A stretch of DNA of 64,000 nt from an uncultured Gammaproteobacteria bacterium (GTDB lineage Bacteria > Patescibacteriota > Patescibacteriia > UBA9934 > GWF2-40-263). Of this stretch, positions 7,026 through 45,708 are shown piece by piece (position 1 is the stretch's first letter; every line of letters begins with the position of its first letter). The stretch is from contig CAYNRK010000003.1 of the NCBI GenBank assembly GCA_964399675.1, positions 73,033 to 137,032 on the forward strand. Reading direction: 5' to 3'. The position numbers were made by a program, and so were the translations under genes. Under the pieces are notes generated by a model. The model saw nothing but the letters and a program-made list of their open reading frames with translations, did not search any database and had not been told where the DNA came from.

Positions 7026-7069
7026 GAGGTTTTTGACTTATTTTTTCTTGGTGTTAAACTGAAAGCAGA

Positions 7070-7345
7070 GTGATTTCTAGTTATATGAAAACAAAAATTA
7101 AAAAAAAGGATTCAAAAAGAACTCGTGAGGCTATGGTAAAAATACCATTGTCTGCTTTCCGATATCTTTCCAGGTATCCTCGTGAGAAAAAAATCGTGAT
7201 AGAGATTTCAACAAAGGATATTAAAAGAGTGAATGATGCCGAAACGCTTGACGAGATTTTAAATGAAGTGCGACTCGAATACGCATTAGGCAACCACAGT
7301 ACTCACAAAAGTGCTAAAAGTCTGATTGCTGCTCTTGAGTCGTAA
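7070..7345 (+). CDS. putative antitoxin partner of the RelE/ParE-like toxin (start uncertain, possibly ATG at 7134)
   Basis: Small ORF immediately upstream of and abutting the toxin gene, with TTGACT-N16-TAAACT upstream. The protein has no recognisable family by eye. Confidence 0.4.
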   Translation: MISSYMKTKIKKKDSKRTREAMVKIPLSAFRYLSRYPREKKIVIEISTKDIKRVNDAETLDEILNEVRLEYALGNHSTHKSAKSLIAALES

Positions 7346-7346
7346 T

Positions 7347-7610
7347 ATGCAAGTAAATCTCTCGCCGCGCTTCAAGCGAGCATATAAAAAGCTGCCGCGG
7401 CATTTGAAAGAAGATTTCAAAGATAAAATTGTAACATTTATTAAAGACCCACGTCATCCAACGCTTAAAACGCATAAACTCAAAGGTAAATATCAGGAGT
7501 GTCTCGCGTTTCGGCTACAAGATGGATATAGGGTCCTTTTTGAATTCTCAGCTTCTGACACAGTAGATTTATTGGATATAGGACCGCACGATATTTATAA
7601 AAAACGATAA
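7347..7610 (+). CDS. relE: type II toxin, RelE/ParE superfamily (mRNA interferase-like)
   Basis: About 88 aa. The motif KLKGKYQECLAFRLQDGYRVLFEF...DLLDIGPHDIY matches the RelE/ParE core. It sits in a toxin-antitoxin arrangement. Confidence 0.65.
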   Translation: MQVNLSPRFKRAYKKLPRHLKEDFKDKIVTFIKDPRHPTLKTHKLKGKYQECLAFRLQDGYRVLFEFSASDTVDLLDIGPHDIYKKR

Positions 7611-7623
7611 GGAGCCATGGGGT

Positions 7624-7699
7624 CAGGTCGTTAATTGTAGCGTTTGAATATTTTTGTGCCATCAAATCAAGCAAACCCGCTTGATTTTTTGGTTGATTT
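7624..7699 (+). repeat. junction repeat J1 (…CGTTAATYGTAGCGTT…ATCAAATCRAGC…GCTTGATTTTTTGGTTGA) including an intrinsic terminator hairpin
   Basis: The same roughly 60 bp module recurs at 9284-9344, and its right half recurs at 8421-8442. The hairpin atcaaatcaagc/gcttgatttt plus a T-run terminates relE. Confidence 0.6.
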
Positions 7700-7710
7700 A
7701 AAAAGAAATC

Positions 7711-7746
7711 CCGCACGAGAAGCGCAAGGCTTCGTCTGTGCGGGGT
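7711..7746 (-). terminator. intrinsic terminator of GC-rich gene A
   Basis: On the minus strand, the hairpin cccgcacagacgaagccttgcgcttctcgtgcggg is followed by ATTTCTTTTT. Confidence 0.6.
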
Positions 7747-7765
7747 GTTGTCTTCTTGCGAGTAG

Positions 7766-8317
7766 CTACCTCGCGATCGAAGTTCGCTCGAAGAAGATGC
7801 CGTTACAGAGAACGTGGCTGGGGCCGGCCGATCCCTCGTAGGAACCGACGTGTTCGATGGCCCGTCCGAAACGTTGGAAGTGCTCCATCATGGACTTCAG
7901 GAGCTCGGTCGCATCGTCACTGCGATCGATTTCGGATCCGCCTCGCACCTCGCTTTCACTGAGGTAGAGATCGATCTTGCCGTCGACGTCGACGTACCAC
8001 CGTACCGGATCACCGCCGGGTGAGGCCAGGGTCAGCACGAGGAACGGCTGCTTGAAGGGTCCCGGATTCTCTGGGTCGTAAGGCAAGTGCTTCAGGTCTT
8101 GCCTCTTGGACTTGAGACCAAGGGCGATCTGCAACCCCTCCCGAGACACCACGGTGGGGTCCACGGACAGGAGATCACTCAACAGGCCAGACTCGAGAAG
8201 TCTCTGCAACACATCTCCATCGAGCCCCTGCTCGGAGATCAGCTGAAGGACAGCATGTGCCTGTGCGAGCGTTGCGGGCTTCTCACGATCAGATCGGACT
8301 GCGCTTCCTTGTGGCAT
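7766..8317 (-). CDS. GC-rich foreign ORF A, hypothetical protein (183 aa)
   Basis: Roughly 60% GC in an AT-rich context. A strong SD (ctAAGGAGGaactgcgATG) precedes the start and the gene has its own terminator. The protein composition is protein-like on the minus strand. No family recognised. Confidence 0.6.
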   Translation of the reverse strand: MPQGSAVRSDREKPATLAQAHAVLQLISEQGLDGDVLQRLLESGLLSDLLSVDPTVVSREGLQIALGLKSKRQDLKHLPYDPENPGPFKQPFLVLTLASPGGDPVRWYVDVDGKIDLYLSESEVRGGSEIDRSDDATELLKSMMEHFQRFGRAIEHVGSYEGSAGPSHVLCNGIFFERTSIAR

Positions 8318-8420
8318 CGCAGTTCCTCCTTAGTAAACGGCCGACGACATTGCCTGCCGAAAAGACATTTCAGCATATTATGTAAACTTTGTCAATTAGA
8401 AAGGGTCCAGATTGGGCGAA

Positions 8421-8442
8421 CTTGCTTGATTTTTTGGTTGAT
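8421..8442 (+). repeat. junction repeat J2 (right half only: CTTGCTTGATTTTTTGGTTGAT)
   Basis: 22-mer shared with J1 and J3, lying between GC-rich gene A and the RhuM-like cassette. Confidence 0.5.
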
Positions 8443-8639
8443 AAAACATACAGTCTTAGATGTTGTTTGTGCGAAATGAATTCGTATATGCACTAGTTAA
8501 GCGACATGCTAAATATCGAAAATTAGAAGATTCCGTGCTTACGGTCATTGTTCCTGTCCACGAAAAAGATCTTCGTTATGGCACATTCCGATCTATTTTA
8601 CGTCAATCAAAATTTTAACTGATAAATTGGTTTTAAATT

Positions 8640-9278
8640 ATGAACAAAAAAGATAATTCAATCGTTTTATTTCATGAAAAACAGGTTCGTCGTTATTGGG
8701 ATAATGAAAAAGAGCTTTGGTATTTTTCAATTGTAGATGTAATTGAAATTCTTACTGACTCGACTATTCCAAGAAGATACTGGAGCGATCTTAAAGGTAA
8801 ATTAAAAAAAGAAGGAAGTGAAGTGTACGAAAAAATCGTACAGTTGAAAATGATTGCTCCAGATGGAAAAAAAAGAGACACGGATTGTTTTTCTACTGAA
8901 GATTTACTTCGTGTTATTCAATCAATTCCTTCACCAAAAGCTGAACCTTTTAAATTATGGCTTGCTAAAATTGGACACGAAAGAATTGAAGAAACTGAAG
9001 ACCCAGAACTTGCTTTTGAAAGAGCCATGCAAACGTATCTTAAAAAAGGACATTCTAAAGATTGGATTAATCAAAGGCTTAAAAGTATTGAAGTCAGAAA
9101 AGAATTAACTGATGAATGGAAAGAAAAAGGTATGAAAGAAGGTTTGGAATATGCAATTTTAACAGACGAAATTACAAAAGCTTGGGCTGATAAATCAGTA
9201 AAACAATACAAGACTTTCAAGAGTCTTAAAAAACAGAGTTTGAGAGACAACATGACCAATCTTGAATTGGTTTTATAA
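8640..9278 (+). pseudogene. RhuM/Bro-N-like (DinD-type) protein, C-terminally truncated
   Basis: 212 aa. The N-terminus (VRRYWDNEKELWYFSIVDVIEIL) looks Bro-N-like and the ORF ends at ...LRDNMTNLELVL directly before junction repeat J3. Family members I recall are about 100 aa longer. Confidence 0.5.
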
Positions 9279-9283
9279 AGGGG

Positions 9284-9344
9284 GCCAGGTACGTTAATCG
9301 TAGCGTTATCAAATCGAGCGTAGAGGCTTGATTTTTTGGTTGAG
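9284..9344 (+). repeat. junction repeat J3 (full copy) with terminator hairpin
   Basis: cgttaatcgtagcgttatcaaatcgagcgtagaggcttgattttttggttga, nearly identical in architecture to J1. Confidence 0.6.
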
Positions 9345-9406
9345 ATTTGACATATATAACGCGTTGCGTTATTATTAACGGCGCTCATTATTAACAGCTC
9401 TTTTGT

Positions 9407-9688
9407 ATGATTCAGAGTTTCGCTGATAAAGAATCAGAGAAGTTGTTTCAGAGGCAACGTTCCAAAAAACTTCCAACAAATATTCAAAAAACTGCTTATA
9501 GAAAATTGCTCATGCTAAGTGCTGCGGTGAACATAAATGATTTACGTGTTCCGCCAGGCAATTGGTTGGAGAGATTAAAAGGAGATCGAAAAAAAGAACA
9601 TAGTATTCGAATTAATGATCAATGGAGAATTTGTTTCATCTGGAAGAATGGAAATGCACATCATGTCAAAATCGAAGACTATCATTGA
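9407..9688 (+). CDS. higB: HigB toxin (RelE/ParE superfamily, plasmid maintenance killer protein)
   Basis: 93 aa. MIQSFADKESEKLF...LKGDRKKEHSIRINDQWRICFIWKNGNAHHVKIEDYH is a textbook HigB pattern. Confidence 0.8.
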   Translation: MIQSFADKESEKLFQRQRSKKLPTNIQKTAYRKLLMLSAAVNINDLRVPPGNWLERLKGDRKKEHSIRINDQWRICFIWKNGNAHHVKIEDYH

Positions 9689-9729
9689 GAAAAGCAAAAA
9701 AATAAGAAAAAAATATGCGCGTCGCCAAA

Positions 9730-10020
9730 ATGATCACCATCGTCCATCCAGGAGAGATCCTTAATAAGGAATTTTTAAAGCCACTTGAAATTTCACAGTA
9801 TCGGTTAGCAAAAGATATTAGTGTTCCACCGCGGCGTATTAACGAAATCGTACTCGGAAAGCGATCGATAACAGCCGACACCGCTCTGCGTCTGTCGCGA
9901 TATTTCAAAATGTCACCAGAGTTTTGGATGAATCTACAATCACATTACGATCTTGAAATGCAGAGCGACAAGATTGGAAAGCGGTTAGAGCAAGAGGTTT
10001 CTGTTGGTGTGTTTGCTTAG
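9730..10020 (+). CDS. higA: HigA antitoxin, XRE-family HTH
   Basis: MITIVHPGEILNKEFLKPLEISQYRLAKDISVPPRRINEIVLGKRSITADTALRLSRYF matches the HigA/VapI HTH. It lies immediately downstream of higB. Confidence 0.8.
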   Translation: MITIVHPGEILNKEFLKPLEISQYRLAKDISVPPRRINEIVLGKRSITADTALRLSRYFKMSPEFWMNLQSHYDLEMQSDKIGKRLEQEVSVGVFA

Positions 10021-10037
10021 AAAATGAAATATTATCT

Positions 10038-10511
10038 ATGACCAAGCAAGACTTAGAACAAATCGTGAACTACATTGTTGAGCAAGGACAACGGGCAATT
10101 AGTGAGAATACTGACGAAACAAATCTGTCCATTGATTACATGGGAATTTTTTGCAAAGACGATTCTGAGTTTTTAGAAATGGAAAGTCTTTTAAGTACCC
10201 TTGGTAAACCAGGAGACAAAACTGCAACAAAGTCAGGTTCAACTTTTTTGTTAGATACGCCTTTTGATACGCCGGCTGGTCTACTAAAAGTACTCAAGGC
10301 AAGGAAGCCAGACAAGACAAGACCTCAGCGCGGCGCACCTGATTTTAAAGTTAATGATTACCAGGCATTCAAAGAAAAATATTTTTTAAGCGGAACAAAC
10401 TCCAACTTTTCATTAATGATCAGAAAGGAATACGAAATGTTTGAACTCAAGGGTGAGGATGTTTTAGTGTATTTTCCAAGTCTGGCATTTGATGAGAGGC
10501 AACCGGCCTAA
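10038..10511 (+). CDS. hypothetical protein (157 aa), last cassette of the island
   Basis: AT-rich ORF with no recognised family, followed by a 46 bp perfect-arm palindrome. Confidence 0.45.
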   Translation: MTKQDLEQIVNYIVEQGQRAISENTDETNLSIDYMGIFCKDDSEFLEMESLLSTLGKPGDKTATKSGSTFLLDTPFDTPAGLLKVLKARKPDKTRPQRGAPDFKVNDYQAFKEKYFLSGTNSNFSLMIRKEYEMFELKGEDVLVYFPSLAFDERQPA

Positions 10512-10526
10512 AGAATTTTGGTAGTA

Positions 10527-10572
10527 TTTCGTACATTAAATTCGTATATGCGAATTTAATGTACGAAATAGA
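10527..10572. repeat. 46 bp near-perfect palindrome (22 bp arms)
   Basis: atttcgtacattaaattcgtatatgcgaatttaatgtacgaaat. The central 13-mer aattcgtatatgc also occurs at 8477-8489 at another cassette boundary. Confidence 0.7.
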
Positions 10573-10805
10573 GCTGCACAGAACTTGACGTCTCTCCCTC
10601 AATACGATACGATTTTTTTGTTGCGGGGACAAAGGACAAGTGGTTTCAAAAGCTGCCAACAGAGACAAAGGGTCAAGGCTGAGAGCCCTTTGAGGAAAGT
10701 CTGATATCACACCACCTTTTGAGCAACACCTACAAAGTAAGGGGTTAATCGGTGAGAAAAACCAATTAACAATTCGGGTGGAACCGTCTGGCCTTTAAGC
10801 TGGAT

Positions 10806-10838
10806 CCCGAAGCTTCACTTGCGTGAAGTTTTTTGTTT
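10806..10838 (+). terminator. intrinsic terminator
   Basis: cccgaagcttcacttgcgtgaagtt followed by TTTTGTTT. Confidence 0.6.
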
Positions 10839-12759: not shown

Positions 12760-12763
12760 GCAA

Positions 12764-12797
12764 AAAAACCGGTTTAATAAAGCCGGTTTTTTGATTT
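12764..12797 (+). terminator. intrinsic terminator after thrS
   Basis: caaaaaaaccggtttaataaagccggttttttgatt. Confidence 0.6.
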
Positions 12798-12811
12798 GTA
12801 GAAGTTGGGGG

Positions 12812-12840
12812 TTGACAGAATCGGTATTTATGTTAAGTTG
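12812..12840 (+). promoter_or_regulatory. promoter-like element of GC-rich gene B (-35 TTGACA)
   Basis: gTTGACAgaatcggtatttatgttaagttg has a perfect -35, but the -10 is ambiguous. Confidence 0.35.
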
Positions 12841-12875
12841 ATTTGCCGACTCACAGGGTAAGGAGGTGATTCATC

Positions 12876-13361
12876 ATGGCCTCTGTTGCAAGGCTTGCAG
12901 GAAGAGATCCTCGCATTGCACAGGTCTTTGACGAGGCCTTTGCAAACTCACCAGCGCTAGCAGCGTTTCTGACAACGCGAGTGCGCAATATGGGCGGAAC
13001 CGTGCTTGTTGCGCGGCTCTTGGTCAAGCATCTGACCAGCCTATTTCGTGGCGTGTTTCCCCATGTGAACAAGCATGTTGTGGACCGCTTTGACATATGG
13101 CCTCATCAGAGGTCTTTCCCTGCAATGGTCGAGGAACTGCTCGGCGGGGAGACACTTCTGAGAAGGGCTGCCATACTCCACACAAGCATCAGGGGTCGTG
13201 TGGAGATTCCGCCAGGCGCTACCCGCGTGAGGGATTGCACCATCAGGCCAAGACGCGGCACGCACGAGTCCTTGTGCGAGCCCGTGGTCTACGCCTTCTA
13301 CTGCGCATGCGCAATGCTGCGCAATCTACGACTTCCGCAGCCGGTTGCTGCGGCAGCATAA
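12876..13361 (+). CDS. GC-rich foreign ORF B, hypothetical protein (161 aa)
   Basis: Roughly 60% GC with a perfect SD (AAGGAGGTGAttcatcATG) and its own terminator. No family recognised. Confidence 0.6.
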   Translation: MASVARLAGRDPRIAQVFDEAFANSPALAAFLTTRVRNMGGTVLVARLLVKHLTSLFRGVFPHVNKHVVDRFDIWPHQRSFPAMVEELLGGETLLRRAAILHTSIRGRVEIPPGATRVRDCTIRPRRGTHESLCEPVVYAFYCACAMLRNLRLPQPVAAAA

Positions 13362-13362
13362 C

Positions 13363-13393
13363 TGGGACTCATCCGAGTCCTGTTTCTTTTTCT
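13363..13393 (+). terminator. intrinsic terminator of gene B (TGTTTCTTTTTCT tail)
   Basis: The hairpin gggactcatccgagtcc is followed by tgtttctttttct. The same TTTCTTTTT tail occurs after the other GC-rich modules. Confidence 0.6.
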
Positions 13394-13448
13394 CAACGAC
13401 GTCCAGCCCCTTTTCTTTTACATGTTTTTTTGTTACAGTCCGCGCATT

Positions 13449-25212: not shown

Positions 25213-25248
25213 TAGTTTTAATTTTTGTTAGTATACTACAAATATTCT

Positions 25249-26163
25249 ATGTACGATATTGATTATCCATACATGCCTGAGGGGCGGGAATTGCGCTATG
25301 TTGCGGCAGATCATCCGTTTATGCAGGCTGCTGCGCTTGCGCGCAAAGAATGTGCCGGAGATCCTTCGTATCCTGTTGGAATTGTTTTGGTGAAAAACGG
25401 GGAAGTGGTTGCGCGTGCTGGGAATTTGTATAACCGCGGACCAGGTCAGATTCATGTTTGTAAAAGAATTGTTCACGAACCTCCAAGTGGTACAGGATAT
25501 GATCTTTGTGATCAACATGATTCGCCTGGACATTCAGAACGAATGGTGATTCAGGTGGCAAAAGAGCAGGGAATTGATGTTTCAGGATGCGACGCATATA
25601 TGTATGGGCATTGGTGGTGCTGCGAGCCTTGTTGGGATGTAATGATTGAAAATGGGATTAGAGATGTTTATGTTGTTGATGATGCACACGAGCGGTTTCA
25701 TCGCGATGTCATTTATCCAGAGATGCTTCAGCCTTCTGTAAGTTCTATTTATCTTGCCGGGGCTTATACGCACAATACTGATATTGAAGGAGAGATCTCT
25801 TTTCACGAGAGGTTAAGAAAAGTTGCAAATGAGTTTGATATTGATTCTTGCCTTCCATATGTTGATAATCCTGAGAATAAAAAACCATGGGAGGAGCGCG
25901 ATAGAAGTTTAATTTATTCGTGGACTAAAGAGCAGGTAATAAAAGCTGATGTTCTTGTAGCAGAAGTTTCACAACCTTCATTAGGTTGCGGTGGGGAATT
26001 GGTGATGGCAGCAGAGGCAAATAAATTAATTGTAATTTTGTCAAAAAAGGGTTTGCGTATTTCAAATTTTTGCATTGGAAACCCAGCGATTGTTTATCAT
26101 ATAGAATATGAAGATGAAGAGGATGCGTGTAAGCAATTTAGAAATGTTTTAAAACAACTTTAA
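25249..26163 (+). CDS. dCMP/cytidine deaminase domain fused to a nucleoside 2-deoxyribosyltransferase-like C-terminal domain
   Basis: Zinc-binding deaminase motifs (HSERMVI, CEPCWDVM). The C-terminal half resembles a deoxyribosyltransferase or Rossmann-like domain. Confidence 0.6.
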   Translation: MYDIDYPYMPEGRELRYVAADHPFMQAAALARKECAGDPSYPVGIVLVKNGEVVARAGNLYNRGPGQIHVCKRIVHEPPSGTGYDLCDQHDSPGHSERMVIQVAKEQGIDVSGCDAYMYGHWWCCEPCWDVMIENGIRDVYVVDDAHERFHRDVIYPEMLQPSVSSIYLAGAYTHNTDIEGEISFHERLRKVANEFDIDSCLPYVDNPENKKPWEERDRSLIYSWTKEQVIKADVLVAEVSQPSLGCGGELVMAAEANKLIVILSKKGLRISNFCIGNPAIVYHIEYEDEEDACKQFRNVLKQL

Positions 26164-26219
26164 CGCATTATTCATAGGTCTTATAGGACCAATAGGACCT
26201 ATGAATAATGCGTTTTTTA
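26163..26219. terminator. bidirectional terminator: 21 bp-arm perfect palindrome
   Basis: aacgcattattcataggtc...gacctatgaataatgcgtt followed by TTTTT, between convergent genes. Confidence 0.65.
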
Positions 26220-26278
26220 ATTGAAATACCGCCCTCGTCTCCGAAGAGACAAGGGCGGCAGTGAGGACGGTTGCGATC

Positions 26279-27694
26279 TCAGTCGCGGATGTCCTTGAAG
26301 ATGGGGGTGAAGTACACCACCACAACGTACGGGGTCAGGCGGCGACCGTCGGCTTTGAAGATCACCTCATCACCTTCGCACGGGTAGTAGCGATGTCCAC
26401 CGCGTTCGTGGATGAACGTGGTGCTTCCGACCTTGACCGCCATCTGGATCTCGTCGCGGCCGATCCGGCGATTGTGGAAGGTGTCGCGCACGACCGTTCC
26501 GACCAGGAAACCGTTGTCTTCGAGTCGGCTGCGGAGCGTGTGCTCCAGGTCTGCGTGATTGAGCTTCAGACGACGCCAGGCTCGGTACACAACCATGGTG
26601 TTGGCACCGCCCAGCTTTTCGAGCACGACCTCGCGGAAGAACTTGCGAGCTTCCGGCTTGTCCATGCTGGCGCACAGGCTCAGCAGGAACGTGGCCAGGT
26701 TGTAGTGAGTCCAGTGCGAGGCCTCTCCGATCGGATCGAGCCTGAGAGCGACTGCACGCTTGGCTTCGTGCGGCAGCTCTTCGAGCACTGTCATGGGAAC
26801 CTGGCGCAGGTTGGTGAGACCCAGCGCCGCCCCTGCGATGAGCAGACCGCTTTTGACCGGCAGACGCAGTCGAAGATTACTCGCTGCCCTGAGCACCTCG
26901 TTGGGGCTCTTCTCTGCACAGATCTCGATGGCCTCAACGAGCTGATCGTTGTCCAGCATCCACCAGGGCTTGAGATCCATGTACTCGAGCCGGTCGTCGT
27001 TGTGGGCAACACCCTGACCCTCGACCTGCTCGATGAAGGCGTTGATGACCAGGTGCGGATGGGTCGCCTTGTCTGGCGAGAGCTCCGCCATGATCCTCGA
27101 CTGTGGCACACCCAGCAAACGCAGGTTGTTCCAGATTCCGCTGTTGGCCATGGAGTCGCTGCCGAGCCGCAGGAACTCGTGCACGTCGTTGGCCATGCCG
27201 CGTTTGACCTCCACCACGCGCAGGCGGTCGATGATCATCTGTGCGATCTCGTTTCGGCCGATGCCGTTCAGGATGGCCGCGACCAACCAGGCGTGGTTGC
27301 GCGCACCACAGTTGGTGTAGATCCAGCTGACCAGCTCCAAGCGACGATCGTCCCTGATCATCGACACCAGCTCGTTGCTGATGATGAAGCAGTTCAGCAG
27401 CCTGTAGCTCAGAGACCGCGCCGGATCATCTGCCGGCGCCTGCGAGTACACCTCGATGGTCTGATCGAGGAAGTCGGTCACGTCCACCATCAGAAACTCG
27501 AACATTTCCGGGTTGCGCAGGATCCAGGTCATTCCCATGGACGTGGGAATCGACCCAGCTCCAGCGTCGTCGATCGTCAGGACCCAGTTCCAGATGTCCT
27601 CGTAGGACACTCCACCTTCCTTGATCCTGGCCTCCCATGCTTCTCGGGCCAGGGGGAGCGCCTCGTAGCTTCCAATCTCTCTTCTCTCCAACAT
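26279..27694 (-). CDS. GC-rich foreign ORF C, hypothetical protein (about 471 aa from Met45 of the long ORF)
   Basis: Roughly 60% GC. On the minus strand there is a textbook promoter TTGACA-17-TATTAT and an SD ccGGAGGAcagATG. The composition is protein-like, and the plus-strand 525-aa ORF is its antisense shadow. No family recognised. Confidence 0.55.
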   Translation of the reverse strand: MLERREIGSYEALPLAREAWEARIKEGGVSYEDIWNWVLTIDDAGAGSIPTSMGMTWILRNPEMFEFLMVDVTDFLDQTIEVYSQAPADDPARSLSYRLLNCFIISNELVSMIRDDRRLELVSWIYTNCGARNHAWLVAAILNGIGRNEIAQMIIDRLRVVEVKRGMANDVHEFLRLGSDSMANSGIWNNLRLLGVPQSRIMAELSPDKATHPHLVINAFIEQVEGQGVAHNDDRLEYMDLKPWWMLDNDQLVEAIEICAEKSPNEVLRAASNLRLRLPVKSGLLIAGAALGLTNLRQVPMTVLEELPHEAKRAVALRLDPIGEASHWTHYNLATFLLSLCASMDKPEARKFFREVVLEKLGGANTMVVYRAWRRLKLNHADLEHTLRSRLEDNGFLVGTVVRDTFHNRRIGRDEIQMAVKVGSTTFIHERGGHRYYPCEGDEVIFKADGRRLTPYVVVVYFTPIFKDIRD

Positions 27695-27797
27695 CTGTCC
27701 TCCGGTCGCATAAAGCGAGTGAGGGAGCCTGGAAAATCCGTCCAGTACGGTTTTGGTGCAACTTGCACCAATCTCGGAATCGCACCGAGAACGACTA

Positions 27798-27826
27798 ATA
27801 ATAGCACAAAAATGCGGTTTTGTCAA
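27798..27826 (-). promoter_or_regulatory. sigma70-type promoter of gene C (TTGACA-N17-TATTAT)
   Basis: Minus-strand reading ttgacaaaaccgcatttttgtgctattat, with a perfect -35 and a 17 nt spacer. Confidence 0.5.
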
Positions 27827-30120: not shown

Positions 30121-30149
30121 ACTATACTATATGTAGTTATTTTTGGCAA
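30121..30149 (-). promoter_or_regulatory. sigma70-type promoter for secE-nusG-rplKA (TTGCCA-N17-TATAGT)
   Basis: Minus-strand reading ttgccaaaaataactacatatagtatagt. Confidence 0.45.
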
Positions 30150-30179
30150 GAGAAGTTTGAGAAAGATAAAACCGCCAGA

Positions 30180-30540
30180 GCTGGCATACAATCGCGCCCA
30201 TGAATAAACAGCGGGCACGACCACCAGATGGCAGTCAATAGAGGTAGAACGCCCGCCAGACAGCCGACGACCCCTGAAGCGCTGAAGAACTGCGCTCGCA
30301 CCGTGTGCTTAGGGGTCGCCGACTGCCGGCGGGCAGAAGGATGCCTCGAGAGACTTCGGGGCCTGATCCCCGGTGGTCATGTTGCACCTCCTTTCGGGGG
30401 GTGTTCTTCTCTCGAGGCGGACAGACGCAGGCCAGTCGTCCCTAGGAATAAGACCTTGCCGCTTGAACGCTCTACCTTACCTAGGACGGCGAGCGATGGT
30501 GGGAAGATATCTTAAATTGACGATTTTGTCAATAGTTAAA
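30180..30540 (-). other. GC-rich non-coding island E with promoter, structured leader and 23-codon sORF (30309-30380)
   Basis: About 60% GC and 360 bp, with no ORF of at least 60 aa on the minus strand. Minus-strand promoter TTGACA(30527-30532)-17-TATCTT. An 11 bp inverted repeat gcctcgagaga/tctctcgaggc brackets gaAAGGAGGtgcaacATG and the sORF MTTGDQAPKSLEASFCPPAVGDP. Confidence 0.4.
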
Positions 30541-37260: not shown

Positions 37261-38165
37261 AGTTCTGCAACAACGATTCGGTCAAGACCTTGAAGGTCTT
37301 GTTTTATTTTTGGCTCTGTTTGAGGAAAGTTGTGTGCGATAAGGTTTGTGATTTTTTCTTTTTGAGTTGGATCAATTTCAAGAAGCACAGTCAGTCGCCT
37401 GGGTAATAATTTGCGATCTAAGCGCAATTGTTTGATTAGTCGAAAATAGGCGTCCAGGCCGTCTGAACCGGCCAGGAGAGCAGATTTTGGCTCATACGCA
37501 ACTTCTTTTTGTGCATACGCTACTTGTGTTTCTGTGAGATATGGAAGGTTGGCACAGAGAATCAGATGCTTAAAAGGATAGACAGATGAGACTTTTGGGT
37601 TTCCTGAAGTGTGTAGAGATCGAAAAAGATCGCTTACTGGTTGTAGTAGATCGCCTTGCCTAAAATCAATAAGTTCATGAGTGTCTAGTTGTTTGGCATT
37701 TTGTTTTGCAACAGCCAAGGCCTTTCCCTCTATGTCTGAAGCAACAACAGGAAATCCTGTTTCAATTGCTAGGGTTATTGCAATTGCACCAGAGCCTGTT
37801 CCAATATCTGCAAAAATAGTTGTGTCTTTGTTTGATTCTTTTGCAATCGCAAGTGCGTTATCAATAAGCGTTTCTGTTGCTGGTCTAGGAATTAAAACAA
37901 AAGGGTTAACCAGAAAAGATCGTTTATAAAATTCTTTTTTATTTGTTATATATGCAATTGGTTCTCGTTTAATACGTCGTTCAATTGATGTGATAAATTG
38001 TTCTTCTCGATGAGACTTAAGCTGTTCAGTAAACCGTGAAAAAAGTTTAGCCTTAGTAATATTCAAAATTGATGCAAGAAGTATTTCTGCATCAAGCATT
38101 GGTGAATCAATATCAGCCTTTCTTAGTTTGTTGTTTGCCCACTGTAAGGCTTCAAAGATAGTCAT
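37257..38165 (-). CDS. prmC: release factor glutamine N5-methyltransferase
   Basis: HemK/PrmC-like SAM methyltransferase (DIGTGSGAIAITLAIE) in a conserved partnership with prfA. Confidence 0.8.
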   Translation of the reverse strand: MTIFEALQWANNKLRKADIDSPMLDAEILLASILNITKAKLFSRFTEQLKSHREEQFITSIERRIKREPIAYITNKKEFYKRSFLVNPFVLIPRPATETLIDNALAIAKESNKDTTIFADIGTGSGAIAITLAIETGFPVVASDIEGKALAVAKQNAKQLDTHELIDFRQGDLLQPVSDLFRSLHTSGNPKVSSVYPFKHLILCANLPYLTETQVAYAQKEVAYEPKSALLAGSDGLDAYFRLIKQLRLDRKLLPRRLTVLLEIDPTQKEKITNLIAHNFPQTEPKIKQDLQGLDRIVVAEL

Positions 38166-38175
38166 TCATTTTTTT

Positions 38176-38308
38176 GTGTCATTGCGAGGAGGCCGTCAGG
38201 CCGACGAAGCCCTCGGCCGTGCCCGTCCTACGGGCGAGGCAATCCTCGTATTAATGAATACTATACTACGGAGATTGCTTCGGCCAGCTTCGCTGGCCTC
38301 GCAATGAC
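38176..38308. mobile_element. MITE-like palindromic repeat, family 2 (GTCATTGCGAGG … CCTCGCAATGAC termini)
   Basis: tgtcattgcgaggaggccgtcaggccgacgaagc...gaggcaatcctcgtat...cctcgcaatgac. Related copies are at 52347, 56178 and 57241. Confidence 0.7.
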
Positions 38309-40328
38309 GCGGGGATTTTTTTGCCAAAAAGAAAAGTAGGGCCCTCTTCGATTCGCACCGAAGGGGGCCCAGAAGGACGCCAGAGTAACAGTGGGTGACC
38401 GCCCGAAGGTGGCCACAGCTTCGCCAGTGTTAGCGTCCGAGTTGTTCCGACGCTGGAGCAAGGTGTCGCGTTCGAGCAAGGCTCGCACGGACACACAGGC
38501 TCCATGTCTCTTCTTGGCTGAGTGGTCGGTTCTTACACCTACCTCTCTTGATGATCGGTTGCTTCTTGTGGTCCGTGGGAGGACCTTGCAGGAACTTTCG
38601 CCGTGAAGCTAGGTTCCACATCCAATCTCCAACTGTCTCGAAGACCTTCTGTATCATCCCCGAAGGAATGACCTTACTTTTTCTCATGTCTGGCCCGAAG
38701 ACCAAGTTAGCTTTCCCCCGAAGAGTACTTGCATCATGATACTTTTTCAGTACAGCCGAAGCTGCATCAGAAGAGGAACGACAACGATTTTCGACCGTTA
38801 TTTATTATCCCTTTGTTTCCTTGGGGATCTTTCGTTGGTTACTCGCTGTGCAACCTTTACGAAAGTGGTCTATCCATTGCTGGATTTCGTTACCTTTTGG
38901 AAGCTCTTTTGGTCGAAACCTCTGGAACTCCCTCACCTTACTTTGGCCGAAGCCGTTTCTGGTTTTTTAGCTCCCCATGCCTGGGTTGCTCAGATCTTTC
39001 GACCTGTTGAGTAATCTGTGACTGATTGATGGATCAGCCATTACTCTTAACGATTTTCAACCGCTATTTATTATCCCGTTGTTTCCATTGGGATCTTTCG
39101 TGGTTATGTCGAGCAAGCTCTAGTAACCTTACGAAAGTTGGTTTATCCTTCGTTTGATTGCTCAAACGTTAGGATTCTCGTTACTTTTTTGGTTGCCCTT
39201 TGGTCTCCCTCTAGGCTTCCTCACCATTTCAGCCGAAGCTTACTTTGGATTTTTGGTCCACATTTGACTACCCGGAGGTCTTCAATTGCTTTCCAAGGTG
39301 TTTCCACCTTTGATCAACACTGGTGTTGGTTTTTAATCAACACCCATCCTGCTTTCCCACAGCTTGTTTCCTGCAAGTCTTTGCTTCCTGTGCCCAGGTA
39401 AGCTTGACTTACTTGTTTCTTGGCTGCTTTCTACAGAATGACTCTGCTTTGGGTGTGGCTTTTGTTTTCCCGCTCGTTTTCTCCGCGTTTCCTTGGAGAC
39501 TCGGTTGCTTGTTTTCCATTTCCGCACTTTGGCAGAGTTTTTGGATCGGTTTACCCGTTCCTTTTTGTTTGCATTAAGGCCTTCCCCGCTATTCCCACCG
39601 AAGTGGTTTTCATCACGGAATCGTTTCATCAGGATTGCTCCCGAATCACTGCCTTTCATGCAATGTATTCCTTGTAGTCCTTTGTTTCCCGTCCGGTTAC
39701 CCCTCTGTCTCCAGTGAGGTTCGTTACTTGTTTCCACTTAGAACTACTTGGTTTTTTGGACCGGTTTACCCGCTCCTCTTCGTTTCCTTCGGATTGTATT
39801 CCCGAGCTTATTTCCGCAACACACGTGCTGTGGCTTTGGGCTCTTGTATTCTCTCCGTGTACTTACGAAGACGTGCTGATCTGGTCTGACCAGGCTCCCA
39901 GGGCAGTTGATTACTCTGTCGGCCTTGTCGCACGTGATGTCCAGATTAAACTAAGAAGTATTTCCTGTCAAGCCCCCCGGAATGACTAGTTTTTGATAAA
40001 AGACGTTGGTTATCCACAGAGGTGAGGATGGGATTGGTGGATAAGCATGGATGTTACCGGGAAGGACTGTCCCGGTAACACCTAAATTTTTGGAAAAGAA
40101 AGCGGATCCAGTCTTGGATCCGAGAAGAAGGGTGTTGGTGAAGGCGACAAGGAAGAGGTGCCGCGGTGTTGCGGGCTCTTGTTTCACTGCCCCAGGCCAG
40201 CAGGGCAGTTGTCGTTCGGAGGTAGAAGTCGTGGGGCGGCACCTCTTCCCGTCGCACCTCACCGCGACCAGCACCATGGGTGGTGGTGGTCAGATACGCC
40301 TTGAAGATACCGTTTTTCCCCGTTTTTG
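38309..40328 (-). other. 2.0 kb ORF-less, strand-biased insertion between prfA and prmC (candidate large structured ncRNA or tandem sRNA array)
   Basis: No protein-like ORF is present on either strand. The operon (minus) strand is purine-rich, with many gaaa, cgaaag and cttcgg motifs. There are roughly 266 bp tandem units at 38785 and 39051 and repeated cggtttacccg motifs. Confidence 0.4.
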
Positions 40329-41459
40329 TCAACCCTGCTCAACCTCAAGAAGTTGTTTCACCTCTTCTTCTTTCAATGCATTGATTATGTTGTCGATTGC
40401 GCCATCCATAATTTCAGGGATGTCGTGGAAGTTTGTTTTTATTCTGTGGTCTGTTACGCGATCTTGCGAAAAGTTATATGTACGGATTTTTTCTGAACGA
40501 TCACCGGTTCCGATTTGAACGCGACGTTTATCTTCACGTTCTTTGCGTGCTTTCTCTTGCTCATGCGCAAAAACACGTGCTCGTATGATCGAAAGCGCAC
40601 GTTCTTTATTTTGTTTTTGCGATCGTTCTTCTTGGCAGTAAACCATCATGCCAGTTGGAATGTGTGTGATTCTAACTGCAGAGTAGGTTGTATTTACGCT
40701 TTGACCACCAGCTCCGGTTGAAGTCGTTGCTTCAATCTTCAGGTCCTTTGGGTCGATTTTAATGTCTACTTCCTCAGCCTCTGGCATGATTGCAATTGTT
40801 ACGGTTGATGTGTGAACACGTCCTTGTTTTTCTGTTTCAGGCACGCGCTGAACACGATGCACCCCGCTTTCGTATTTTAGTTTTGCGTAAACCCCGGTTC
40901 CTTTTATTGAAAAAATGACTTCTTTAAAACCACCAAGATCGTTCCGATTGGCTGAAATTAGCTCTGTTTTGAAGTTATTGCGTTCGGCAAAGCGTGTGTA
41001 AAGCCGCATCATTTCAGCTGCAAACAAAGACGACTCATCACCGCCCGCTCCAGCGCGAATTTCAACAATGATTCCTTTTTTGTCCATTGGGTCTTGTGGA
41101 AGCAGGGCAACAAGTAGATTTTTTTCTAGTTCTGGAAGTTTGGTCTCAAGTTCTACAATTTCTTCTTTGGCAAGTGCTTTCAGGTCTGCGTCATCATCTT
41201 GGGCTAAGGCAAGCTTTGCGTTTTCAAGATTTTTTTTAGCTTGTTCATAAGCTGCGCCCACATCAACAATTTCTTTTATGTGCGCGTATGCTTCATTTAC
41301 TTTTCGGATTTTTTGCGGATCAGAAAGCACCTCGCTGTCTGTGAGTTTTGTTTCAAGACTTTTCAGTTCTTGTTTTTTATTTTGAACTTGTTCGAGTAGA
41401 TTCATATTTTTTTGGAAATTAAAAACGTCCTTCAACAGAAAGACGTTTTTGTTCAACAT
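40329..41459 (-). CDS. prfA: peptide chain release factor 1
   Basis: GGQ motif (GAGGQSVNTTYSAVRITHIPTG) and a PxT-type RF1 region. Confidence 0.92.
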   Translation of the reverse strand: MLNKNVFLLKDVFNFQKNMNLLEQVQNKKQELKSLETKLTDSEVLSDPQKIRKVNEAYAHIKEIVDVGAAYEQAKKNLENAKLALAQDDDADLKALAKEEIVELETKLPELEKNLLVALLPQDPMDKKGIIVEIRAGAGGDESSLFAAEMMRLYTRFAERNNFKTELISANRNDLGGFKEVIFSIKGTGVYAKLKYESGVHRVQRVPETEKQGRVHTSTVTIAIMPEAEEVDIKIDPKDLKIEATTSTGAGGQSVNTTYSAVRITHIPTGMMVYCQEERSQKQNKERALSIIRARVFAHEQEKARKEREDKRRVQIGTGDRSEKIRTYNFSQDRVTDHRIKTNFHDIPEIMDGAIDNIINALKEEEVKQLLEVEQG

Positions 41460-44700: not shown

Positions 44701-44801
44701 TTACGTCCTGTCAACACAAGGTTGACGCTGTACGCACGACAGTAAATTCGTGCACAAGTATCCAGACACTTCGGTGCCGCTAAGGATACGAAAGGATAGT
44801 C

Positions 44802-45584
44802 ATGGGACAGTTCGCTGTCAGCGATGGACAGAGACTCAAGGTCTTTGATCAATGTGTGGATCTGCAACGCCGCCTGAGAGAAGGTGGTCTGGATCCCGAA
44901 CTGATGAGCGTGGGTCTTCAGGCGCTTCTTACCGGGGTTGATCCAGAAGAGCTTGCAGCTGCTCGTGGCAAGCGCGAACAGCCTGCCAAGCGCAATCTCG
45001 CCGCGGAACGCCGTAACGAGATCACGGCGTTCTACCGCGGTCTCGGGTTTGACACGCTCGAGATCCCTGTGCCCACCATGGGCGGTAAGCGCGTTTCCAA
45101 CAATGAGTTCGGCCGTCGAGCCAAGGCTGGTCAGGCGCTCTTCTTTCGTCCGGCTACCTCACTCATTTCCTACAACAGGTTCATGACTGCTGTGGGTCAG
45201 ATGGATCATTGGACAGTACTCGATGAGGCCGAGTGCGAGAACATCGCCTGGGAGCCAACAGAGACTGGCTACTGGTTCTGGGCTGAGATCCAGGATTCCT
45301 GCCTCCGCGTGGGTACATCCTGGAACGATTTGACGGCCGAGCACAACCTCCTCTGCCTGGAGGAGTACATGATCGTCTGGCACGTCATGCGCGTGCTCGA
45401 GAGCATCATGATCGATTGTGAGACTTGGTCATGGCTACGCACTCGCTACCAGGCCGTTCCTGGCCCCAGTGCTCTCTACGCCCTCATGCATTACGATGAG
45501 GTGCATGTTGGCTGGAACAGGTCTAGGGGTCTCTCGCTTGGCCACCGCGAAACGGGTGGTCGTATCGCGGAAAAGCTCGTCTGA
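44802..45584 (+). CDS. GC-rich foreign ORF D, hypothetical protein (260 aa)
   Basis: Roughly 58% GC with an SD aAAGGAtagtcATG. The composition is protein-like (W/Y/H/E-rich C-terminal half). No family recognised. Confidence 0.55.
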   Translation: MGQFAVSDGQRLKVFDQCVDLQRRLREGGLDPELMSVGLQALLTGVDPEELAAARGKREQPAKRNLAAERRNEITAFYRGLGFDTLEIPVPTMGGKRVSNNEFGRRAKAGQALFFRPATSLISYNRFMTAVGQMDHWTVLDEAECENIAWEPTETGYWFWAEIQDSCLRVGTSWNDLTAEHNLLCLEEYMIVWHVMRVLESIMIDCETWSWLRTRYQAVPGPSALYALMHYDEVHVGWNRSRGLSLGHRETGGRIAEKLV

Positions 45585-45634
45585 GTTCGGTCAACTCTTC
45601 GCTCAGGCTAAAGCCTGGGGCTACCACAGCATCT

Positions 45635-45669
45635 GCCCGCTGAGTTTTGCTCGGCGGGTGTTTCTTTTT
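45635..45669 (+). terminator. intrinsic terminator of gene D (TGTTTCTTTTT tail)
   Basis: gcccgctgagttttgctcggcgggtgtttcttttt. Confidence 0.55.
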
Positions 45670-45708
45670 ATGATAAACTGTCTTTATCAATACTTATCTT
45701 TTTTCTTT

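What the first reader, a model, noticed from the sequence alone, without database searches (positions are those of the whole stretch)
7700..8420. GC-rich foreign gene A embedded inside the TA island
This 183-aa ORF is about 60% GC against a roughly 38% background. It has a perfect AAGGAGG SD and its own hairpin-plus-TTTCTTTTT terminator. It is inserted exactly between junction repeats J1 and J2. No recognisable domain was found. Its position in a TA or defence context suggests an accessory or defence function.
Basis: partly seen in the sequence, partly recalled or inferred. Interest (0 to 1): 0.6.

Follow-up and report, generated by a model that had tools for sequence, protein, structure and literature searches.

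The report
Foreign single-gene cassette, new protein family
A real, recently imported 183-aa gene with its own promoter, ribosome-binding site and terminator sits between two exact 19-base repeats inside a toxin-antitoxin island of a Candidatus Uhrbacteria-like genome. It belongs to a small, unnamed protein family whose nine located genome copies are all in Patescibacteria, and its function is still unknown.

Summary
ORF 7766-8317 (-) is 60% GC with GC3 0.71, against GC3 about 0.33 in the host genes. It has an AAGGAGG Shine-Dalgarno site, a promoter-like TTGACA-17-TGcTGAAAT, and a hairpin plus U-tract terminator. It lies between exact 19-nt direct repeats at 7679 and 8424, with a third copy at 9326.

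It is a real gene. A profile search found 89 clusters among 1.84 billion representative proteins. dN/dS is 0.10-0.35 in three ortholog pairs. AlphaFold gives pLDDT 85 overall and above 94 for the conserved C-terminal domain.

The family matches nothing in Pfam, NCBIfam, PHROGs, PADLOC or PDB sequences, and Foldseek finds nothing in PDB or BFVD. All nine genome loci found are Patescibacteria MAGs. None is in the phage or plasmid collections.

Uhrbacteria relatives have the 404-aa gene directly followed by thrS, so window 7026-10616 is an inserted island and gene A is a later insertion inside it. In 11 of 11 loci the family gene has higher GC3 than its host. In four loci it is flanked by genome-specific direct repeats.

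There is no integrase and no attC-like site, so it is not an integron. A conflict-related binding role is inference only. This is an ordinary kind of feature (a horizontally acquired orphan gene) from a new family.

The parts
7766..8317 (-). Gene A coding sequence, 183 aa. It has an N-terminal four-helix domain (about residues 15-65) and a conserved C-terminal beta-beta-alpha-beta-beta-beta domain (about residues 85-180).
   Evidence: ORF. Codon-position GC 0.66/0.41/0.71. Homologs. dN/dS 0.10-0.35 in orthologs. AF2 pLDDT 84.8.
8325..8331 (-). Shine-Dalgarno AAGGAGG, 7 nt upstream of the ATG.
   Evidence: Read directly from the sequence.
8367..8395 (-). Promoter-like site: -35 TTGACA (8395-8390), 17-nt spacer, extended -10 TGcTGAAAT (-10 hexamer at 8372-8367).
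   Evidence: Read by eye. The consensus scan did not report it because the -10 hexamer lacks A at position 2. Inferred, not shown.
7700..7746 (-). Intrinsic-terminator-like hairpin (CCCGCAC...GUGCGGG) followed by AUUUCUUUUU, about 20 nt after the stop codon.
   Evidence: site 7728-7710. (-23.9 kcal/mol, z = -3.16).
7698..8423 (.). Inserted GC-rich segment, about 726 nt and GC about 0.57. It holds the promoter, SD, ORF and terminator and nothing else.
   Evidence: No second ORF with support.
7611..7697 (+). J1 module. It starts at the parE stop codon and runs GGGGTCAGGTCGTTAATTGTAGCGTT ... hairpin AAATCAAGC-N6-GCTTGATTT ... TTTGGTTGAT. The exact 19-nt core is 7679-7697. It is terminator-like for the parDE-like operon.
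8398..8442 (+). J2 module. It has the same exact core (8424-8442), but its left arm is diverged and G-rich (GATTGGGCG) and still pairs through G-U. It lies 9 nt upstream of gene A's -35 box.
9279..9343 (+). J3 module. It is 83% identical to J1 over 36 nt, with further upstream similarity. It starts at the stop codon of the truncated Bro-N gene. The core is 9326-9343.
7026..10616 (.). Lineage-specific island inserted between the 404-aa gene and the thrS leader. Its contents are listed here:
- parDE-like pair (7070-7345, 7347-7610)
- gene A
- hicA-like gene (8460-8618)
- Bro-N/PDC-S13 gene truncated at profile position 211 of 286 (8640-9278)
- higB (9407-9688)
- higA (9715-10020)
- unknown 157-aa gene (10038-10511)
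   Evidence: Pfam and PADLOC hits. Uhrbacteria relatives L154, L155 and L156 have the 404-aa gene directly followed by thrS.

Best explanation
Gene A is a genuine protein-coding gene that arrived recently by horizontal transfer as a self-contained one-gene unit: promoter, SD, ORF and terminator, about 726 nt.

**Where it landed.** It sits in the terminator-like hairpin downstream of a parDE-like operon. That operon lies in a toxin-antitoxin island, which is itself an insertion between a conserved 404-aa gene and thrS in a Candidatus Uhrbacteria-like (Patescibacteria) genome.

**How it inserted (inferred).** The geometry is two hybrid hairpin modules sharing an exact 19-nt core. J1 keeps the chromosomal left arm. 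J2 carries a different, G-rich left arm. This is what a single reciprocal crossover between a small circular DNA carrying one core copy and the chromosomal core would leave (Campbell-type integration). The recombinase or short-homology pathway that did it is unknown. A second cassette (hicA-like plus truncated Bro-N) is bounded the same way by J2 and J3.

**What it encodes.** The protein belongs to a small, previously unnamed family. All nine copies located in genomes are in Patescibacteria. The gene occurs as a lone gene in variable regions: next to tRNAs, toxin-antitoxin genes and a restriction-modification system, and once in an array next to a serine recombinase and a rolling-circle Rep gene. 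It is consistently richer in GC3 than its host.

**What it does (inferred, about 0.3).** It is acidic (pI 5.1) and has no N-terminal hydrophobic stretch, so it is probably cytoplasmic. Its conserved C-terminal domain has these features:
- motifs NPxPFxQPFLVL, WxIDVxGxIxxY, AT and YxGSAGPSHxLRNGxxFxR
- a glycine-rich loop flanked by conserved Asp, His and Arg

I infer that this domain binds a partner, either an anionic small molecule or a protein. The protein would then serve the mobile DNA in host-element conflict (immunity or anti-defence type), rather than acting as a toxin-antitoxin component.

**How the confidence splits.** The overall figure of 0.6 covers the identity claims: about 0.9 that it is a real gene, a recent import and a member of a new family, and about 0.4 for the crossover-in-the-core insertion route. 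The functional reading stands at about 0.3.
For: **Real gene**
- Homologs carry invariant motifs.
- 89 clusters have E below 1e-3 among 1.84 billion representatives.
- dN/dS is 0.35, 0.15 and 0.10 in three ortholog pairs.
- The codon-position GC pattern fits the minus-strand frame.
- The AF2 model is confident.

**Recent transfer**
- GC3 is 0.71 against a host median of 0.33. The GC step is sharp, exactly at the repeats.
- The gene is present and identical in at least 18 independently assembled contigs.

**Island status**
- The 404-aa gene is directly followed by thrS in L154, L155 and L156.

**Repeat geometry**
- The core is exact at 7679, 8424 and 9326.
- J1 and J3 share left arms, while J2's left arm differs.
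- The Bro-N gene is truncated at J3: profile positions 3-211 of 286 are matched.

**Family distribution and mobility**
- 9 of 9 genome loci are Patescibacteria MAGs.
- None was found in IMG/VR, PLSDB or INPHARED.
- Gene GC3 exceeds the host median in 11 of 11 loci.
- Genome-specific direct repeats flank the gene in L023 (27-nt repeat, 4 copies bounding 3 small genes), L025 and L022.
- L023 carries a large serine recombinase overlapping tRNA-Gln, an HUH Rep (PF23343, E = 2.8e-20) and type I R-M genes.
- A tRNA lies within 0.3-3 kb in L021, L027 and L024.
- Published work reports that most HGT into Patescibacteria comes from other Patescibacteria (PMC12455944).

**Function hints**
- pI is 5.1.
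- No partner gene is conserved across 11 contexts.
- One member (P0022) has an N-terminal RHH-like domain at sub-threshold E = 0.024, covering the whole RHH_1 profile.
Against: - No empty site was found. No close homolog over 51% identity and no donor was found, so neither the direction nor the date of transfer is shown directly.
- The window holds no recombinase. A 19-nt core is short for RecA recombination, so the insertion mechanism is inferred from geometry alone.
- The J repeat was not found outside this genome.
- The functional assignment rests on context and composition only. There is no PADLOC hit, no structural match, and no conserved neighbour.
- The most conserved columns are mostly structural residues (P, L, W, V, G, Y, F). 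His168, Asp110 and Ser163 are conserved in only 80-85% of members.
- In this protein the family's Arg171 is Cys.
Confidence: 0.6

Rival explanations
1. Integron-type gene cassette. Gene A is a cassette captured by an integron integrase, and the J repeats are attC sites.
For: - The two units are small (745 and 902 nt) and bounded by same-orientation repeats.
- Toxin-antitoxin genes are in the array.
- One cassette is inverted and has its own promoter.
- L023 shows a similar array.
Against: - No tyrosine recombinase was found in the 64-kb window. A motif scan of all ORFs and a Pfam scan of the unassigned 190-520 aa ORFs were both negative.
- The J modules are simple 9-14 bp hairpins with a T-run. 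They lack the paired R''/R' (RYYYAAC / GTTRRRY) core sites and the bulged attC architecture (read).
- There are only three copies.
Confidence: 0.04
2. Gene A is a working part of the surrounding toxin-antitoxin systems. For example, it could be a new antitoxin or toxin partner for the orphan hicA-like gene or the parE-like gene.
For: - It lies between a parDE-like pair and a hicA-like gene that lacks hicB.
- One family member carries an RHH-like N-terminus, as many antitoxins do.
- L021 has an RHH/ParE-like pair 3 kb away.
Against: - It is transcribed divergently from hicA, with its own promoter and terminator.
- Its composition is completely different from both neighbours.
- In 10 other loci it has no toxin-antitoxin partner next to it.
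- At 183 aa with a folded 100-aa conserved domain, it is unlike known HicB or ParD.
Confidence: 0.08
3. The conserved domain is a ligand-sensing or regulatory module. It would be a stand-alone sensor, fused in some members to DNA-binding domains, and gene A would be a transcription-linked regulator of mobile-element genes.
For: - P0022 has an RHH-like fusion.
- Several members carry N-terminal helical extensions.
- The repeats lie just upstream of the -35 boxes of the family gene and its neighbour in the window, L023 and L025.
- The weak, non-significant Foldseek neighbours include Lrp/RAM-type domains.
Against: - The RHH match is below threshold and occurs in only one of 65 members.
- Most members are the bare domain.
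- No significant fold match exists.
- The N-terminal domain of gene A has no DNA-binding family hit.
Confidence: 0.15
4. The ORF is a chance reading frame in GC-rich non-coding or antisense-coding DNA, or the segment is an assembly chimera or contaminant.
For: - GC-rich DNA gives long ORFs on both strands. A 130-aa plus-strand ORF overlaps at 8087-8479.
- Several short contigs break at 7658, 7775 and 7802.
Against: - Conserved homologs exist in this frame under purifying selection.
- A canonical SD, ATG and terminator are present.
- There is no Rfam hit.
- Both junctions are crossed at 100% identity by contigs from three assembly sources and several samples.
- The contig breaks coincide with a scaffold-gap variant at 7095, not with the junctions.
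Confidence: 0.02

Closest known systems
Campbell-type integration of a small circular element (attL/attR direct repeats sharing a core)
   Same: - The insert is flanked by an exact 19-nt direct repeat.
- The left junction keeps the chromosomal left arm, and the right junction has a different left arm.
- The target is a hairpin at a gene's 3' end.
- A second unit is bounded by the same core.
   Different: - No integrase is present in the insert or within 64 kb.
- The insert is only about 726 nt and carries one cargo gene.
- No circular form or empty site has been observed.
Integron gene cassettes in sedentary chromosomal integrons (homogeneous attC arrays rich in toxin-antitoxin cassettes)
   Same: - The units are under 1 kb and separated by same-orientation, array-specific repeats.
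- Toxin-antitoxin genes are interspersed.
- An inverted cassette brings its own promoter.
   Different: - There is no IntI and no attI.
- The J modules lack R''/L''/L'/R' architecture and the GTTRRRY core.
- There are three repeats only.
Recombinase-associated arrays of orphan immunity genes (rAID islands of Bacteroidales; recalled from the literature, not tested here)
   Same: - Small orphan genes of unknown fold are separated by repeated intergenic sequence next to a recombinase, as seen in homolog locus L023.
- The genes are horizontally mobile.
   Different: - The recombinase in L023 is a serine recombinase with an HUH Rep.
- The window itself has no recombinase.
- No cognate toxin family is known for this protein, and no similarity to known immunity families was found.
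CPR/Patescibacteria-enriched hypothetical protein families and Patescibacteria-to-Patescibacteria HGT (PMC12455944)
   Same: - All located genome copies of the family are in Patescibacteria MAGs.
- The gene sits in genomic islands.
- Transfer within the phylum is the commonest reported route.
   Different: - This family is not named in Pfam, NCBIfam or PHROGs.
- The 30-point GC3 excess here implies a donor pool much richer in GC than any sampled carrier.

Membership tests
Integron gene cassette | Integron integrase (IntI, tyrosine recombinase) with attI adjacent to the array | tested here: not met
   No tyrosine- or serine-recombinase motif was found in any window ORF. Pfam scans of the unassigned mid-size ORFs gave no recombinase. 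Only the 64-kb window was searched, not the whole 264-kb contig.
Integron gene cassette | attC site: imperfect palindrome of 57-141 nt with R''(RYYYAAC)/R'(GTTRRRY) and L''/L' boxes | tested here: not met
   The J modules are 45-87 nt with a plain 9-14 bp hairpin and a T-run. The 3' end is GGTTGAT and no complementary RYYYAAC lies at the 5' end (read by eye).
Type II toxin-antitoxin module | Adjacent, co-oriented toxin and antitoxin genes in one operon, with the pairing conserved in homologs | tested here: not met
   Gene A is monocistronic and divergent from its neighbours. No toxin or antitoxin partner is conserved next to homologs in 10 loci.
Known anti-phage defence systems (PADLOC) | Match to a defence-protein profile | tested here: not met
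   No PADLOC family at E up to 1. The neighbouring truncated Bro-N gene does match PDC-S13 (E = 1e-104).
Phage or plasmid cargo gene | Homologs on recognised viral or plasmid sequences | tested here: not met
   No relatives in IMG/VR, INPHARED or PLSDB. No PHROG hit for 65 members. One homolog (L023) does lie about 3 kb from an HUH Rep gene and about 3.8 kb from a serine recombinase gene, in the same variable region.
New family defined here (NPxPFxQPFLVL ... YxGSAGPSHxLRNGxxFxR domain) | The four conserved motifs and a beta-beta-alpha-beta-beta-beta domain of about 100 aa | tested here: met
   All motifs are present in gene A at residues 84-178. The profile hit has E = 3e-47. The domain has pLDDT above 94. 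Exception: family Arg171 is Cys here.
Horizontally acquired genomic-island gene | Compositional deviation, absence from the syntenic site in relatives, and mobility signatures at the borders | tested here: met
   GC3 is 0.71 against 0.33. The 404aa-thrS junction is uninterrupted in three Uhrbacteria genomes. Exact 19-nt direct repeats lie at the borders.

The most novel reading that the evidence does not exclude
Patescibacteria may exchange single-gene cassettes through an integrase-independent, or not yet recognised, repeat-bounded system.

- Short genome-specific repeat modules would mark the cassette boundaries. Examples are the hairpin J modules here, the 27-nt repeats in L023, and the repeats in L025 and L022.
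- This family would be a recurrent cargo: a novel-fold conflict protein (immunity or anti-defence) drawn from a GC-rich gene pool. That pool would also have seeded the other roughly 58% GC islands in this genome.
Probability: 0.12. Interest if true: 0.7.

Novelty: new member of a known kind. Interest (0 to 1): 0.33.

Why it matters
It adds a clean, well-bounded example of very recent gene import into a streamlined Patescibacteria genome. It also defines a previously unnamed protein family of about 89 clusters at 50% identity, with a confidently predicted domain that has no detectable relative in PDB or BFVD by Foldseek.

If the recurrent flanking repeats reflect a common capture mechanism, they would point to how these reduced genomes acquire accessory genes without carrying recombinases. 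As it stands, the function is unknown and the feature is an ordinary kind of thing: an orphan island gene.

Tried and rejected
**Domain and sequence searches**
- Pfam, NCBIfam, PADLOC and PHROGs gave nothing for gene A.
- The same was true for all 65 aligned family members; each library gave only isolated single-member hits with E of 0.0004 or weaker.
- PDB sequence searches with the single protein and with the profile gave only noise.
- The N-terminal domain alone hit only designed helical-repeat proteins and no Pfam family.

**Structure**
- AF2 with 4 sequences was poor (pLDDT 56). With 65 sequences it was good.
- Foldseek against PDB and BFVD gave no match with E below 0.1.

**Empty site and J repeat**
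- The empty-site pattern (J1 left arm + core + J2 or J3 right flank) had 0 hits in metagenome contigs.
- The 18-nt core alone in metagenomes gave 120 stretches.
- In IMG/VR the core gave 3 unrelated hits.
- The L023 repeat gave 0 hits in IMG/VR.
- Rfam gave nothing on the J modules.

**Other checks**
- The word-indexed search with the 65-sequence profile returned only 10 proteins because of its candidate cap.
- The other GC-rich islands in the window lack flanking direct repeats, so the repeats are not a general property of GC islands here.
- The 161-aa GC-rich ORF between thrS and miaB is not homologous to the equally long gene at that place in L154.
- The N-terminal domain of gene A aligns only weakly with the GSPIDP-type N-terminal domain of P0017, P0018, P0035 and P0049, so I do not claim homology.

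Full report
**1. The observation**

The minus-strand ORF 7766..8317 (183 aa, ATG start) exists as described. GC in 200-nt windows rises from 0.39 at 7500-7699 to 0.57-0.62 across 7700-8299. It falls back to 0.29-0.38 from 8400 onwards. The ORF has GC 0.60 with codon-position values of 0.66/0.41/0.71. The eight neighbouring genes have GC3 of 0.21-0.44, and the median GC3 of the 31 long ORFs in the window is 0.33.

The expression signals are these:
- AAGGAGG lies at 8331-8325, 7 nt before the ATG.
- A hairpin plus AUUUCUUUUU follows the stop codon. The scan places it at 7728-7710. The full stem folds at -23.9 kcal/mol, z = -3.2.
- By eye there is also a promoter-like TTGACA (8395-8390), a 17-nt spacer, and TGcTGAAAT. 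The consensus scan did not list this site.

The 19-mer GCTTGATTTTTTGGTTGAT occurs exactly at 7679 and 8424. Its first 18 nt occur again at 9326. No dinucleotide shuffle reached this count. The GC-rich segment 7698-8423 fills the space between the first two copies and contains nothing but this one expression unit.

**2. It is a real gene, not an artefact**

- The exact protein is encoded on at least 18 contigs from ENA, JGI and Logan assemblies of several samples. All are 100% identical to the window, and several short ones cross one junction each.
- The contig breaks at 7658, 7775 and 7802 go with a scaffold-gap variant at 7095, not with the junctions.
- A word-indexed search found only three distant homologs (37-51% identity over the C-terminal 105 residues).
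- A profile search of 1.84 billion representative proteins found 89 clusters with E below 1e-3, and 66 with E below 1e-10. Nearly all are 110-230 aa.
- A 65-sequence alignment shows the motifs NPxPFxQPFLVL, WxIDVxGxIxxY, AT and YxGSAGPSHxLRNGxxFxR.
- Three ortholog pairs give dN/dS of 0.35, 0.15 and 0.10 in this frame.
- There is no Rfam match in the region.

**3. The protein**

With the 65-sequence alignment, AlphaFold2 gives mean pLDDT 84.8. The N-terminal four-helix part scores 65-83. The conserved C-terminal domain (about residues 85-180), with order beta-beta-alpha-beta-beta-beta, scores above 94.

The searches below found no relative or named domain:
- No member of the family has a supported match in Pfam, NCBIfam or PHROGs; each library gave only isolated single-member hits with E of 0.0004 or weaker.
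- Gene A does not hit PADLOC.

The protein is acidic (pI 5.1) and has no hydrophobic N-terminus. Most family members are the bare domain. Some have N-terminal extensions:
- a shared GSPIDP-type helical domain in P0017, P0018, P0035 and P0049
- an RHH-like domain in P0022, sub-threshold (E = 0.024) but covering the full RHH_1 profile

The N-terminal domain of gene A is not convincingly related to these. The best-conserved columns are mainly structural. Thr137, Tyr118, Tyr160 and Arg178 exceed 90% conservation. Asp110, Ser163, His168 and Arg171 are at about 80-85%. Gene A has Cys in place of Arg171.

**4. Who carries the family**

A scan of one genome per species (185,579 species) found nine loci. 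All are Patescibacteria MAGs: Paceibacterota, Zambryskibacteria and 'Patescibacteria group'. No relative was found in IMG/VR, INPHARED or PLSDB.

No neighbour is conserved across the 11 contexts examined. The gene is a lone insert among housekeeping genes or within dark-matter islands.

Mobility signatures recur across the loci:
- In L023 the gene is one of three small genes bounded by four same-orientation copies of a 27-nt repeat. Nearby are a large serine recombinase that overlaps tRNA-Gln, an HUH rolling-circle Rep (PF23343, E = 2.8e-20) and type I R-M genes.
- L025 and L022 also have genome-specific direct repeats flanking the gene.
- tRNA genes lie 0.3-3 kb away in L021, L024 and L027.
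- An RHH/ParE-like pair lies 3 kb away in L021.
- In all 11 long loci the family gene has higher GC3 than the median long ORF of its host. The difference ranges from +0.01 to +0.38, and the window is the extreme case.

**5. The host and the island**

The neighbouring 404-aa protein has best hits of about 55% identity to Candidatus Uhrbacteria proteins.

In three Uhrbacteria contigs the order is pheS-pheT-dnaE-404aa-thrS-(variable)-miaB-miaA. The 404-aa gene is directly followed by thrS or its leader. In the window, 3.6 kb (7026-10616) is intercalated there. Its contents are listed here:
- a parDE-like pair
- gene A
- a hicA-like gene without hicB
- a Bro-N/PDC-S13 gene truncated at profile position 211 of 286
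- higB and higA
- an unknown 157-aa gene

Gene A is therefore a secondary insertion, compositionally distinct, inside an older low-GC island.

**6. How it got there (inferred)**

J1 and J3 are homologous modules that begin at the stop codons of parE and of the truncated Bro-N gene. Their layout is GGGGYCAGGT...GTAGCGTT...hairpin...TTTTTTGGTTGA. Each folds as a terminator-like hairpin on the plus strand.

J2 shares the exact core. Its left arm is different and G-rich, and still pairs through G-U.

This arrangement is chromosomal left arm + core + element sequence at J1, and element left arm + core + downstream sequence at J2. It is the product expected from one reciprocal crossover within the core between a circular DNA and the chromosome. 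The same logic, applied twice, accounts for the J2-J3 unit.

What catalysed the crossover is unknown:
- No recombinase gene was found in the window.
- No empty site was found in metagenome contigs.
- The core is not part of a dispersed repeat that I could detect.
- The J modules lack attC features, so I do not file this under integrons.

**7. What it does (inferred, low confidence)**

The points that bear on function are these:
- Self-contained expression signals.
- Lone-gene status.
- Recurrent residence in mobile or variable regions.
- An acidic, apparently cytoplasmic protein.
- A compact conserved domain with a glycine-rich loop flanked by conserved Asp, His and Arg.
- An occasional fusion to a DNA-binding-type domain.

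These fit best a partner- or ligand-binding accessory protein of mobile DNA involved in host-element conflict (about 0.3). A regulatory sensor-domain reading (about 0.15) and a toxin-antitoxin component reading (about 0.08) are the main rivals. The remaining probability is for something not considered. None of this is shown.

**8. Verdict**

'Foreign gene in a TA island' is supported. The 'high-GC host or phage' origin and the 'defence function' are not supported by any test I could run.

The kind of feature, a horizontally acquired orphan gene, is ordinary. The family is new to the databases searched, and the recurring repeat-bounded arrangement is a lead worth a systematic survey.

Noticed in passing
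window 12841-13430, 26191-27800, 30141-30530, 38151-40380, 44751-45690: There are at least five further GC-rich islands (GC 0.52-0.59) in a 0.42 GC window. They hold ORFs without any Pfam hit. Island 26191-27800 carries two almost fully overlapping long ORFs on opposite strands (525 aa on the plus strand, 515 aa on the minus strand). None has flanking direct repeats.
   Followed up: partly
window 10617-10812 (+): A sub-threshold T-box leader match (43 bits, against a gathering score of 93; E = 2e-7) lies directly upstream of thrS. It is plausibly a real but divergent T-box.
   Followed up: no
window 10525-10570: A near-perfect AT-rich palindrome (23-nt arms, 96% complementary, no loop) lies after the 157-aa gene, at the right end of the island.
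   Followed up: no
window 8640-9278 (+): The Bro-N gene matches PADLOC PDC-S13 (E = 1e-104) and phrog_15286, but only up to profile position 211 of 286 and 274 respectively. It is truncated exactly where the J3 module begins.
   Followed up: partly
L023 7482-9356 (Paceibacterota MAG JBAYIX010000002): Four same-orientation copies of GGTTCCAACATCGTACCACGCAGCCAG bound three small GC-elevated genes, one of them inverted. They lie downstream of a serine recombinase overlapping tRNA-Gln and an HUH Rep gene, and upstream of type I R-M genes. The repeats sit just upstream of -35-like boxes.
   Followed up: partly
window 7095 (start of the antitoxin-like ORF 7070-7345): Two scaffolds (L014, L015) carry extra sequence with an N-gap at this point, flanked by ATTAAAAAA(A). 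This is either a strain variant or a scaffolding artefact. It explains why short contigs break nearby.
   Followed up: partly
L154/L155 11385-13851 and L156 11104-13889 versus window 12760-13421: The thrS-miaB interval is a second variable slot in Uhrbacteria. It holds different unannotated genes in each genome, and in the window it holds a GC-rich 161-aa ORF.
   Followed up: partly
window 25225-26163 (+): This ORF is a fusion of a dCMP/cytidine deaminase domain with a nucleoside 2-deoxyribosyltransferase domain. It lies immediately upstream of the largest GC-rich island.
   Followed up: no
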